IMG/VR virus record: IMGVR_UViG_2663762839_000010
Direction: 5' to 3' (one strand)
DNA length: 4,402 nt
Origin: a virus
Lineage: Duplodnaviria > Heunggongvirae > Uroviricota > Caudoviricetes
Notes under the pieces: generated by a model
The model's input: the letters and a program-made list of their open reading frames with translations, nothing else
Told to the model about the DNA's origin: nothing
Databases searched by the model: none
Made by a program: the position numbers and the translations under genes
Shown: positions 1-680 of the stretch, in pieces
How positions within the stretch are numbered: position 1 is the first letter of the stretch
How the letters are laid out: the number at the start of each line of letters is the position of its first letter

Positions 1-473
1 GAGTGAATAAACTGTACCGTCCGTTAACCCTTCCGGCTTATTAGCAGAATATGCTGGTGACGTATGAATCGTCACGCTGGCATTACTGGTATAATCCCAT
101 TGAATATTTACACCAGTCGCATAATTTCCGATTGCAACGTAAATATCGTAAGTATCACCAGATGTATTGACCCAGGCAAAATTTGTAAACCCTGTCGATG
201 TGCGCTGCCATAAAGCACCAGTAATCCCCTTCGGATTACCATTACCTGCACGTAAAACAAGTTCAGATATACCTGCCTGTTGAGGTGGCCCCACGTTAAA
301 TCCAGCGCCACCAATCAACGTAATTGAAACAACAGAACTCGCCTGTGGCATGGTTACCGTTGCTAATTTGAACCAACCAGCACCACCGCTGAATGACATT
401 GTTGTTGAGTTAAGCGTACCAATATCTTTCGGCGTCAGTGTTATATCCGCTGAAAGCGCCTTACCATTCACCT
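1..473 (-). pseudogene. Phage side-tail-fiber-like protein fragment; 5'-truncated, no start codon, continues beyond the left edge of the window
   Basis: Minus-strand frame is open from 561 to 1 with no stop. Translation from about 474 downward reads KVNGKALSADITLTPKDIGTLNSTTMSFSGGAGWFKLATVTMPQASS...GDTYDIYVAIGNYATGVNIQWDYTSNASVTIHTSPAYSANKPEGLTDGTVYSL, which is Gly/Ser/Thr/Asn-rich like the distal part of enterobacterial phage tail fibers (recognised from memory, not searched). No ATG with a Shine-Dalgarno in frame; the 5' side is occupied by the W-like gene in another frame. GC about 44% versus about 60% in the neighbouring terminase genes. Confidence 0.5.
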
Positions 474-680
474 TACGGGCAGAAGGTACCCGGGATGCCC
501 CCGTCGTCGTGTAATCAGAGCCGCAAGGCGGCGCTCCCACTCCTGCCGTCCCTGCCGGATCTCAGATAAGTTTTCCATGGTCATCTGCTGACCATTAAAG
601 GTGACGGATTTTCCGTCCAGCACCGCCATTTCAGCTTCCGTATAACGCTGAATCATGGCTTCGATATCATTCTGGTTCAT
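468..680 (-). CDS. Head-tail joining / head completion protein, lambda gpW-like (70 aa from the ATG at 678-680)
   Basis: Track ORF 468..686 (72 aa, MVMNQNDIEAMIQRY...ITRRRGHPGYLLPVR). C-terminal RRRGHPGY resembles lambda gpW ...QRRRGPAGFYV (from memory), and size and position after the large terminase match. GGAGG (revcomp of 687-691) sits 6 nt upstream of the second ATG (678-680), so that is the likelier start. That ATG overlaps the terminase TGA (677-679) as ATGA. The last few codons may be altered by the junction at about 470-490. Confidence 0.65.
   Translation of the reverse strand: MNQNDIEAMIQRYTEAEMAVLDGKSVTFNGQQMTMENLSEIRQGRQEWERRLAALITRRRGHPGYLLPVR

What the first reader, a model, noticed from the sequence alone, without database searches (positions are those of the whole stretch)
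460..565. Abrupt junction between the W-like gene and a start-less tail-fiber fragment; portal, head and tail genes missing
In lambda-like genomes the order is cos, Nu1, A, W, B (portal), head genes, tail genes, and finally side tail fiber. Here the W-like gene is followed directly by a tail-fiber-like frame with no start codon, in the frame one nucleotide offset from W. GC drops from about 62% (471-520) to about 44% (421-470). The W C-terminus (GHPGYLLPVR) departs from the lambda ending (GPAGFYV) precisely where the fiber-like frame begins to look like fiber (KVNGKALSADITL). This fits a large internal deletion with its joint at about 470-490, leaving only the packaging module plus a distal fiber fragment.
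Basis: partly seen in the sequence, partly recalled or inferred. Interest (0 to 1): 0.6.

Follow-up and report, generated by a model that had tools for sequence, protein, structure and literature searches.

The report
Deletion scar in a decaying prophage
The abrupt join is real: about 18 kb (portal, head, tail and the front 60% of the side tail fibre gene) was cut out of a lambda-like prophage of E. coli between two copies of an 8-base repeat, an ordinary example of how resident prophages decay.

Summary
All genes lie on the minus strand: terS (DUF1441), a gpA-type terL, a W-position head-tail adaptor, then a side-tail-fibre (stf) fragment.

Similarity to intact phages and prophages (mEp460, cdtI, E. 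coli SC480, H10, PSJ-07) runs from window 4316 down to 485. Similarity to stf runs from 1 to 492. The two overlap in one 8-bp microhomology, GGTACCCG (485-492).

In intact relatives at the Qin site (ydfJ/ydfK/pinQ) this 8-mer occurs exactly twice, 18,177, 18,052 or 16,200 bp apart, with the portal, head and tail genes, J, lom and about 630 stf codons in between. Random joints reach 8 nt or more of overlap with p of about 2e-4.

The identical 40-nt joint occurs in 16 other contigs from independent assemblies and metagenomes, so it is not an assembly artefact. It is absent from 5,426 complete E. coli genomes, from the phage records searched and from IMG/VR.

W keeps its length but its last five residues change. 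The fibre fragment is not strictly start-less: a GTG overlaps the new W stop (GTGA).

In this contig terL carries two nonsense codons, and other carriers show further independent lesions. Verdict: ordinary cryptic-prophage decay, low interest.

The parts
1..471 (-). stf' : C-terminal fragment of the side tail fibre gene. It reads from the GTG at 471-469 and runs off the contig end (157 codons here; 394 aa in longer carriers). stf-derived DNA extends to 492.
   Evidence: 99.8% identity of 1-492 to the middle of 1030-codon stf genes. PHROG 295 'tail fiber protein', E 5.6e-149, matching only profile positions 443-794 of 794. Pfam Collar domain. Called as a gene from this GTG.
485..492 (.). Deletion joint: a single retained copy of the 8-bp microhomology GGTACCCG
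   Evidence: Both parental sequences were read directly. The 8-mer occurs exactly twice in each intact relative, at the two breakpoints. p is about 2e-4 for 8 nt or more at a random joint.
468..686 (-). W' : head-tail adaptor gene in the W position (72 aa from the ATG at 686; 70 aa from the ATG at 680). Its last five codons and its stop (482-468) are read from stf-derived DNA, changing RLARF* to LLPVR*.
   Evidence: PHROG 118 head-tail adaptor, E 5.6e-35. Comparison with intact alleles. The exact hybrid protein is found on many other contigs.
677..2776 (-). terL pseudogene (gpA-type large terminase) interrupted by two in-frame TAG codons
   Evidence: The intact 699-aa allele in SC480 has Pfam GpA_ATPase and GpA_nuclease domains. 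The window differs from it at four positions, all protein-changing.
888..890 (-). Nonsense codon in terL (GAG to TAG, window base 889), shared with contig L004
1001..1003 (-). Second nonsense codon in terL (TGG to TAG, window base 1002), seen only in this contig
2785..3342 (-). terS, a Nu1-position small terminase (DUF1441). The source annotation starts it at 3312 (175 aa).
   Evidence: Pfam DUF1441, E 4.6e-44; PHROG 141 'terminase small subunit', E 4.4e-65

Best explanation
The window is a complete 4,402-bp contig of a draft assembly (CDRI01000407.1, GCA_000946855.1). It carries the scar of one internal deletion of about 18 kb in a lambda-like prophage of the type that occupies the Qin site (ydfJ-ydfK-pinQ side) in E. 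coli.

The deletion joined the last codons of the W-position head-tail adaptor gene to codon 631 of the roughly 1030-codon side tail fibre gene. It did so by illegitimate, microhomology-mediated recombination between two copies of GGTACCCG, of which one copy remains at 485-492.

The deletion removed the portal, the protease/capsid fusion, the head-completion genes, all tail genes, J, lom and the N-terminal virion-attachment part of Stf. The element can therefore no longer build particles.

The scar most likely arose once. It has since been inherited and moved between related prophage backbones by homologous recombination in the flanking terL and stf/tfa homology. The leftover genes are now decaying independently in different carriers; in this contig terL has two stop codons.

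Shown directly: the joint, the parental arrangement, the microhomology, the spread, and the secondary lesions. Inferred: the molecular mechanism (slippage or annealing at the microhomology), the single origin, and the lack of function.
For: - Breakpoints are exact and constant in all hits.
- The parental sequences show the 8-bp overlap.
- The 8-mer occurs only at the two breakpoints in SC480, PSJ-07 and H10, spaced 18,177, 18,052 and 16,200 bp apart.
- The annotated content between the copies runs from portal to the stf N-terminus. The bona fide phage mEp460 has the same order.
- The identical 40-mer joint is in 15 contigs from NCBI drafts, ENA metagenomes and Logan assemblies, plus one JGI metagenome contig.
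- Nine of the ten long carriers sit at the Qin site.
- The joint is absent from 5,426 complete genomes, the GTDB representatives, IMG/VR and the matching phage records.
- Decay is ongoing: two nonsense and two missense changes with no synonymous change in the window's terL; a 1.9-kb terS-terL deletion in L014; a 1.2-kb stf'-tfa deletion in L012; a frameshift in L007; an IS3 end in L004.
- About 2,800 equally good or better direct-repeat pairs exist in the same 21 kb, so this pair is not a special substrate.
- L015 has the window-type alleles next to the joint and PSJ-07-type alleles further out. This is the pattern expected if the scar is carried into other backgrounds by recombination.
- Qin prophage size is known to range from 11 to 97 kb among strains (PMC6379469).
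Against: - The two main near-joint haplotypes each match a different intact prophage on both sides, to within 37-57 nt of the joint: window type = SC480/H10, L013 type = PSJ-07. A single origin then requires crossovers very close to the joint. Independent recurrence cannot be fully excluded.
- terL (700 aa) and stf' (394 aa) are intact in most long carriers, and terL differences between carrier haplotypes are mostly synonymous (25 to 5). This could also mean selection on the remnant, although alleles imported from functional phages explain it equally well.
- The window itself is too short to show its own chromosomal location, and its other end carries an unexplained joint to ycjX.
Confidence: 0.88

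Rival explanations
1. The same deletion arose independently two or more times at the same 8-bp repeat, in different prophage allelic backgrounds. The GGTACCCG pair would then be a deletion hot spot rather than a single inherited scar.
For: Haplotype L013/L014/L016/L018/L020/L024 is identical to the intact PSJ-07 prophage on both sides of the joint, including SNPs 37 nt (stf side) and 57 nt (W side) from it. The window/L004/L007 haplotype matches SC480/H10 on both sides.
Against: The pair is one of about 2,800 direct repeats of 8 bp or more that are spaced more than 5 kb apart in the same region. About 240 of these are 10 bp or longer, and nothing marks this pair as special. Recombinant carriers exist (L015, L021, L012) that mix the two haplotypes around the joint, so recombination close to the joint does happen. 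No recombinase site is evident at the joint.
Confidence: 0.1
2. The remnant is a retained, functional module rather than junk: cos-terS-terL-W'-Stf'-Tfa. Stf' (the receptor-binding half) would be translated by coupling to W' through the GTGA overlap. It could serve, for example, as a receptor decoy, an exclusion factor, or a recombination reservoir for fibre tips.
For: stf' is open for 394 aa in 9 of 10 long carriers and terL is intact in 9 of 10 (the gene calls list it as 700 aa in 9 of 10). terL differences are mostly synonymous. The module is found in a second prophage backbone, L015. The GTG/TGA overlap is present in all carriers.
Against: Carriers differ by only 0-1% and exchange alleles with functional phages, so intact ORFs and a synonymous excess are expected without selection on the remnant. 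At least five independent inactivating lesions were seen among 17 carriers. The GTG has no properly spaced Shine-Dalgarno sequence; AAGG abuts it directly. Stf' lacks the N-terminal domain that attaches the fibre to a tail (only profile positions 443-794 are matched). No expression data are available.
Confidence: 0.06
3. The joint is an assembly or cloning artefact: a chimeric contig, or vector polylinker, given that GGTACCCGGG resembles the KpnI-SmaI sites of pUC vectors.
For: The source is a fragmented draft assembly (the accession suffix of this contig is 407). The contig's other end carries an odd blunt joint to ycjX that was found nowhere else.
Against: The identical joint occurs in 16 other contigs from different samples, assemblers and collections. 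An 8-bp overlap is far below assembler k-mer sizes. GGTACCCGGG is native to the W gene of intact phages and prophages.
Confidence: 0.01
4. Fibre directly after W is the natural gene order of some phage or satellite lineage.
For: None beyond the window itself.
Against: In all 16 phage records with the W-side match, similarity stops at window 485, the joint, and none continues into the fibre sequence. mEp460 and three intact prophages have the portal gene directly after W. There are no matches to the joint in IMG/VR. The fibre ORF starts at codon 631 of a 1030-codon gene and lacks its N-terminal domain.
Confidence: 0.01

Closest known systems
Cryptic prophage Qin of E. coli K-12 (nohA-stfQ joint)
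   Same: Same chromosomal neighbourhood in the longer carriers (ydfJ, ynfT, ydfK, pinQ, tfaQ on one side; gnsB, ynfN, cspI, rzpQ, rrrQ on the other). Same kind of scar: in K-12 a packaging gene (nohA, Nu1-like) directly abuts, and overlaps, a truncated 320-aa stfQ, with all head and tail genes missing.
   Different: It is a different event and a different allele set. K-12 lost terL and W as well, and its nohA and stfQ are not detectably similar to the window at the nucleotide level; only 77 nt at 84% identity matched. Here terS, terL and W are retained and the joint lies in W.
Intact Qin-site lambdoid prophages (E. coli SC480, H10, PSJ-07) and phages mEp460, cdtI, phi458 and Ayreon
   Same: 98-99.8% nucleotide identity over terS-terL-W. 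SC480 and H10 also carry the window's stf allele (99.8%), and PSJ-07 carries a roughly 99% identical stf allele that matches carrier L013 exactly. These represent the undeleted parental form.
   Different: They retain the 16-18 kb of portal, head and tail genes between the two GGTACCCG copies. The window has one copy and nothing in between.
Microhomology-mediated (illegitimate, short-direct-repeat) deletion in bacteria
   Same: One copy of a short direct repeat remains at the joint, no foreign DNA is inserted, and no mobile-element end is present.
   Different: The repeats are 18 kb apart, which is far for slippage-type events. The enzymology (RecA-independent slippage, single-strand annealing during prophage replication, or end joining after breakage) cannot be read from the sequence.
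Grounded or defective prophage decay as reviewed by Ramisetty and Sudhakari 2019 (PMC6379469)
   Same: Deletion of structural genes, followed by point-mutation and IS decay. Large size variation of Qin among strains (11-97 kb).
   Different: This particular joint is not mentioned there. My literature searches were few, and none of the papers they returned described it.

Membership tests
Lambda-like (mEp460/cdtI-type) prophage packaging module | Collinear terS (DUF1441), gpA-type terL and W-position adaptor with high nucleotide identity to intact members | tested here: met
   99.7-99.8% identity over window 485-4316 to SC480 and H10; 98-99% to 16 phage records. Pfam and PHROG assignments.
Lambda-like (mEp460/cdtI-type) prophage packaging module | Portal gene immediately downstream of the adaptor gene | tested here: not met
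   In the window, stf DNA follows at 484. The portal gene follows W in mEp460 and in the intact prophages SC480, H10 and PSJ-07; in the other matching phage records similarity stops at the joint. This is the deletion.
Qin-site prophage of E. coli | Location next to ydfJ / ynfT / ydfK / pinQ | not testable with these tools
   The window ends inside stf, so its own flank is unseen. Nine of the ten long contigs with the same joint are at this site, and L015 is not.
Lambda gpW family (sequence family of lambda W) | Significant sequence match to gpW models or to the gpW structure | tested here: not met
   Pfam gave only DUF6148 at 18.8 bits, below its 27-bit cutoff. phmmer against PDB sequences found nothing significant. 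The protein does belong to PHROG 118 'head-tail adaptor' (E 5.6e-35). It is therefore W-like by position and role, not shown to be a gpW homologue.
Lambda-type side tail fibre (Stf) | C-terminal fibre and collar region | tested here: met
   PHROG 295, E 5.6e-149; Pfam Collar, E 1.6e-12; Phage_fiber repeat.
Lambda-type side tail fibre (Stf) | N-terminal tail-attachment domain and a native start codon | tested here: not met
   The retained DNA starts at codon 631 of 1030 (SC480 and H10) or codon 587 of 987 (PSJ-07). The PHROG match covers only profile positions 443-794.
gpA-type large terminase (functional) | Uninterrupted ORF with the ATPase and nuclease domains | tested here: not met
   There are two in-frame TAG codons at 888-890 and 1001-1003, plus R to Q inside the P-loop GPARTGKT. 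The ORF is intact in 9 of the 10 long carriers.
Microhomology-mediated deletion | A short identical sequence at both parental breakpoints, with one copy left and no inserted DNA | tested here: met
   GGTACCCG is present at both breakpoints in three intact relatives, and a single copy lies at 485-492. Random expectation is 1.9e-4.
Microhomology-mediated deletion | Independence from RecA and from site-specific recombinases | not testable with these tools
   This needs genetics. By eye, and from my recollection of gix/hix-type crossover sites, nothing resembling one for the nearby Pin invertase is present at the joint; I ran no search for it.
Phage satellite (PICI or cos-satellite) | Own integrase and regulation module, small size, and helper-dependent packaging signals without a full structural set | tested here: not met
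   The long carriers show an ordinary lambdoid late region (Q, holin, lysozyme, Rz) upstream and the Qin flank downstream. There is no satellite-type organisation.

The most novel reading that the evidence does not exclude
The W'-Stf' joint defines a compact module (cos, terS, terL, W', Stf', Tfa) that is kept by selection and passed between prophage backbones. An N-terminally truncated, receptor-binding fibre would be made by translational coupling at the GTGA overlap. It could act as a receptor-blocking or exclusion factor, or as a ready donor of fibre tips for incoming phages.
Probability: 0.06. Interest if true: 0.5.

Novelty: new member of a known kind. Interest (0 to 1): 0.12.

Why it matters
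It matters little beyond bookkeeping. It is a clean, base-exact example of how a lambdoid prophage becomes cryptic: one microhomology deletion removes the whole virion-building block, and the orphaned packaging genes then decay.

The 40-nt joint is a convenient lineage marker for a deletion allele that circulates in E. coli but is absent from all complete RefSeq genomes. The mix of haplotypes around the scar gives a small natural data set on how close to a heterology border recombination can resolve.

For annotation, it explains three things that gene callers report here: a 'hypothetical' 70-aa protein with an odd C-terminus, a 394-aa 'tail fibre' with a GTG start, and 'partial' terminases.

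Tried and rejected
1. Vector or polylinker artefact. GGTACCCGGG at the joint resembles the pUC KpnI-SmaI sites, but the same 10-mer is native to the W gene of intact prophages.
2. Assembly chimera at joint 1. Rejected by the 16 independent carriers.
3. Shigella or another species as the source. I could not establish the organism name. The assembly accession was not found in the paper library. Cluster members of related proteins are named E. coli, with one each named Shigella sonnei and E. albertii.
4. The K-12 Qin scar being the same event. Rejected: the K-12 nohA/stfQ region shares almost no nucleotide similarity with the window.
5. The GTDB species representatives hold neither joint. JGI metagenomes hold joint 1 once and joint 2 never. 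IMG/VR holds no copy of joint 1.
6. Sequence homology to lambda gpW. Not detectable with Pfam or with PDB sequences.
7. A dN/dS-type argument for selection on the remnant. I counted 25 synonymous to 5 non-synonymous differences in terL between carrier haplotypes. I judged this uninformative, because both alleles also exist in intact prophages.
8. No structure prediction or large protein searches were run. They would not bear on a deletion scar.

Full report
**What the window is.** The 4,402 bases are one entire contig, CDRI01000407.1 of the draft assembly GCA_000946855.1. All phage genes are on the minus strand.
- terS: a DUF1441 / PHROG 141 small terminase at 2785-3342.
- terL: a gpA-type large terminase at 677-2776.
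- W-position gene: a 70/72-aa gene at 468-686, assigned to PHROG 118 'head-tail adaptor' with E 5.6e-35.
- Tail fibre: an open frame from 471 to the contig edge, with tail-fibre similarity.

**Checking the observation.**
- A megablast search of 1-1100 against 50,697 phage records gave 16 hits of 98-99% identity (mEp460, cdtI, phi458, Ayreon and others). Every one starts at window 485 or 487, and one separate stf hit covers 2-411.
- Against 5,426 complete E. coli genomes, the best hits cover 485-4316 at 99.4-99.8%.
- The left part alone matches the middle of genes annotated 'prophage tail fiber N-terminal domain-containing protein' over 1-492 at 99.8%.
- The two similarity blocks therefore overlap by eight bases, 485-492.
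- The W product ends ...RRRGHPGYLLPVR, whereas intact alleles end ...RRRGHPGYRLARF. The portal ATG overlaps the W stop in the intact alleles.

**The parental arrangement.**
- In E. coli H10 both halves lie in one prophage, on the same strand and in the same order. Between them are the portal, the ClpP-protease/capsid fusion, DUF2190, the head-tail and tail genes, the tape measure, L, K, J, lom and the 5' part of stf.
- The same holds in SC480 and PSJ-07.
- The bona fide phage mEp460 has terS-terL-adaptor-portal...J-lom-stf.
- Reading the two parental sites directly gives the following:
  - stf side: ...gggcagaaGGTACCCGaccattcg...
  - W side: ...cgccagccGGTACCCGggatgccc...
  - window: ...gggcagaaGGTACCCGggatgccc...
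- The 8-mer occurs exactly twice in each intact locus, at the two breakpoints. The spacing is 18,177 bp in SC480, 18,052 bp in PSJ-07, and 16,200 bp in H10, whose J and K genes are themselves partly deleted.
- Of 2 million simulated joints in SC480, only 1.9e-4 had 8 nt or more of overlap. The joint therefore has the signature of microhomology-mediated illegitimate recombination.
- The stf breakpoint is codon 631 of 1030, so the N-terminal 61% is lost, including the domain that gives the gene its annotated name.

**Is the joint real?** Yes.
- The exact hybrid W protein, in its 72-aa and 70-aa forms, is on record in many assemblies. The index lists the 70-aa form in 177 blocks of the collection.
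- All 15 contigs fetched (NCBI drafts, ENA metagenomes, Logan assemblies) contain the identical 40-nt joint. So does one JGI metagenome contig.
- An 8-bp overlap cannot mislead an assembler.
- GGTACCCGGG looks like a pUC polylinker, but it is native to the W gene.
- The joint is absent from all 5,426 complete RefSeq E. coli genomes (no place covers 80% or more of a 96-nt probe). It is also absent from the GTDB species representatives and from IMG/VR.

**Context in longer carriers.** Nine of the ten long contigs place the scar at the Qin site.
- Upstream: Q, holin, lysozyme, Rz, cspI, gnsB, a 68-aa phrog_657 gene, terS and terL.
- Downstream: a 394-aa stf' gene called from a GTG that overlaps the W' stop (GTGA), then tfa, pinQ, ydfK, ynfT, ydfJ and ydfI.
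- The tenth, L015, has the same scar in a different lambdoid backbone, with other lysis genes and an EcoRII restriction-modification system downstream.

**Single origin or recurrence?**
- Near the joint there are two main haplotypes. The window, L004 and L007 match SC480/H10. L006, L013, L014, L016, L018, L020 and L024 match PSJ-07, including SNPs 37 nt and 57 nt from the joint. L015, L021 and L012 are mixtures.
- Beyond window position about 1650, the terL 5' half and terS are different alleles altogether, at 55-76% identity.
- This pair of repeats is one of about 2,800 direct repeats of 8 bp or more that lie more than 5 kb apart in the same 21 kb. Recombinant carriers also exist.
- I therefore favour one origin followed by homologous exchange in the flanking homology. 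Independent recurrence keeps roughly a 10% chance.

**Decay after the deletion.**
- The window's terL differs from the SC480 allele at four positions, and all four change the protein: E to stop (base 889), W to stop (1002), R to C (1516), and R to Q inside the P-loop GPARTGKT (2553).
- L004 shares only the stop at 889 and ends in an IS3 terminus at window-equivalent 3857.
- L014 has lost 1.9 kb of terS-terL, L012 has lost 1.2 kb of stf'-tfa, and L007 has a frameshift in terL.
- In the other long carriers terL (700 aa) and stf' (394 aa) are still open.
- Differences between carrier haplotypes in terL are mostly synonymous, 25 to 5. Both alleles also exist in intact prophages, so this says nothing about selection on the remnant.

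**How it works.**
- Mechanistically this is a scar, not a device. One illegitimate recombination event at an 8-bp repeat removed every gene needed to build a particle and left cos, terS, terL, W', Stf' and Tfa.
- W' keeps its length but has five foreign C-terminal residues. I recall from the lambda gpW literature that the C-terminal tail is needed for activity, but I did not verify this here. It is also moot without heads.
- Stf' could in principle be translated by termination-reinitiation at GTGA. However, it lacks a spaced Shine-Dalgarno sequence and the tail-attachment domain.
- I rate a retained function at about 6%.

**Comparison with what is known.**
- The closest described case is the K-12 cryptic prophage Qin itself, where nohA (Nu1-like) abuts and overlaps a truncated 320-aa stfQ with no head or tail genes. 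That is the same kind of scar, but a different event on different alleles.
- Size variation of Qin from 11 to 97 kb, and deletion-driven decay of 'grounded' prophages, are reviewed in PMC6379469.
- The finding is therefore a new, precisely mapped member of a well-known class.

**Noticed in passing.**
- The contig's other end (4316/4317) joins phage late-region DNA bluntly to nucleotide 287 of the chromosomal gene ycjX.
- In FDAARGOS_497 the two parental sites are on the same strand, with ycjX 274.5 kb lower. The joint therefore has tandem-duplication or circle topology rather than deletion or inversion topology.
- This joint was found nowhere else. It may be a real rearrangement or a chimeric contig end.

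**Verdict.** The feature is ordinary and of low interest.

Noticed in passing
window 4316-4317 (and 4317-4402): A second novel joint. Phage late-region DNA, where gnsB should follow, is joined with no microhomology to nucleotide 287 of the chromosomal gene ycjX. In a reference genome the two sites are on the same strand and 274.5 kb apart, with ycjX at the lower coordinate. The joint therefore has tandem-duplication or circular topology, not simple deletion or single inversion. It was not found in the GTDB representatives or in JGI metagenomes. It could be a real rearrangement or a chimeric contig end.
   Followed up: partly
window 889, 1002, 1516, 2553: All four differences between the window's terL and the closest intact allele change the protein. 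Two are TAG nonsense codons. One is R to C. One is R to Q inside the Walker-A P-loop (GPARTGKT to GPAQTGKT). None is synonymous.
   Followed up: yes
window 468-471: The new stop codon of W' (TGA) overlaps a GTG in the fibre frame (GTGA). Gene callers start a 157-aa ORF here, and a 394-aa ORF in longer carriers. This is a chance-made arrangement that looks like translational coupling. AAGG abuts the GTG with no spacer.
   Followed up: partly
L004, window-equivalent position about 3857: This carrier contig leaves the window sequence and continues into what I recognise, from memory only, as the left end of IS3 (TGATCTTACCCAGCAATAGTGGACACGCGG...). That would be an IS insertion upstream of the 68-aa gene in that lineage.
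   Followed up: no
L015:1-20213: The same W'-stf' joint sits in a different lambdoid prophage backbone. Upstream are KilA-N, DUF968, Q, an N6/N4 methylase, and a different holin, lysozyme and Rz1. Downstream of tfa are a GIY-YIG protein, a Dcm-type methylase with EcoRII, and a transposase. The scar has therefore moved between prophages.
   Followed up: partly
L014 and L012 (in PSJ-07/L023 coordinates, 3435-5317 and 24733-25911): Secondary deletions in other carriers. L014 lacks 1.9 kb removing terS and the 5' part of terL. L012 lacks 1.2 kb removing distal stf' and most of tfa.
   Followed up: yes
window about 1650-3469: A mosaic boundary inside terL. Carriers of the PSJ-07 type are 97-100% identical to the window up to about 1600. 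Beyond that, identity falls to 55-76% through the terL 5' half, and megablast finds no match over terS.
   Followed up: partly
window 3451-3550: A GC-rich island (64% GC) lies between AT-rich stretches (25-40% GC) just upstream of terS, where a cos site would be expected. I did not examine it further.
   Followed up: no
joint 40-mer, window 466-505: The hybrid W protein is indexed in 177 blocks of the protein-position collection. None of the contigs that carry it exceeds 1 Mb, and none of the 5,426 complete RefSeq E. coli genomes has the joint. The allele seems confined to lineages known only from drafts and metagenomes.
   Followed up: partly
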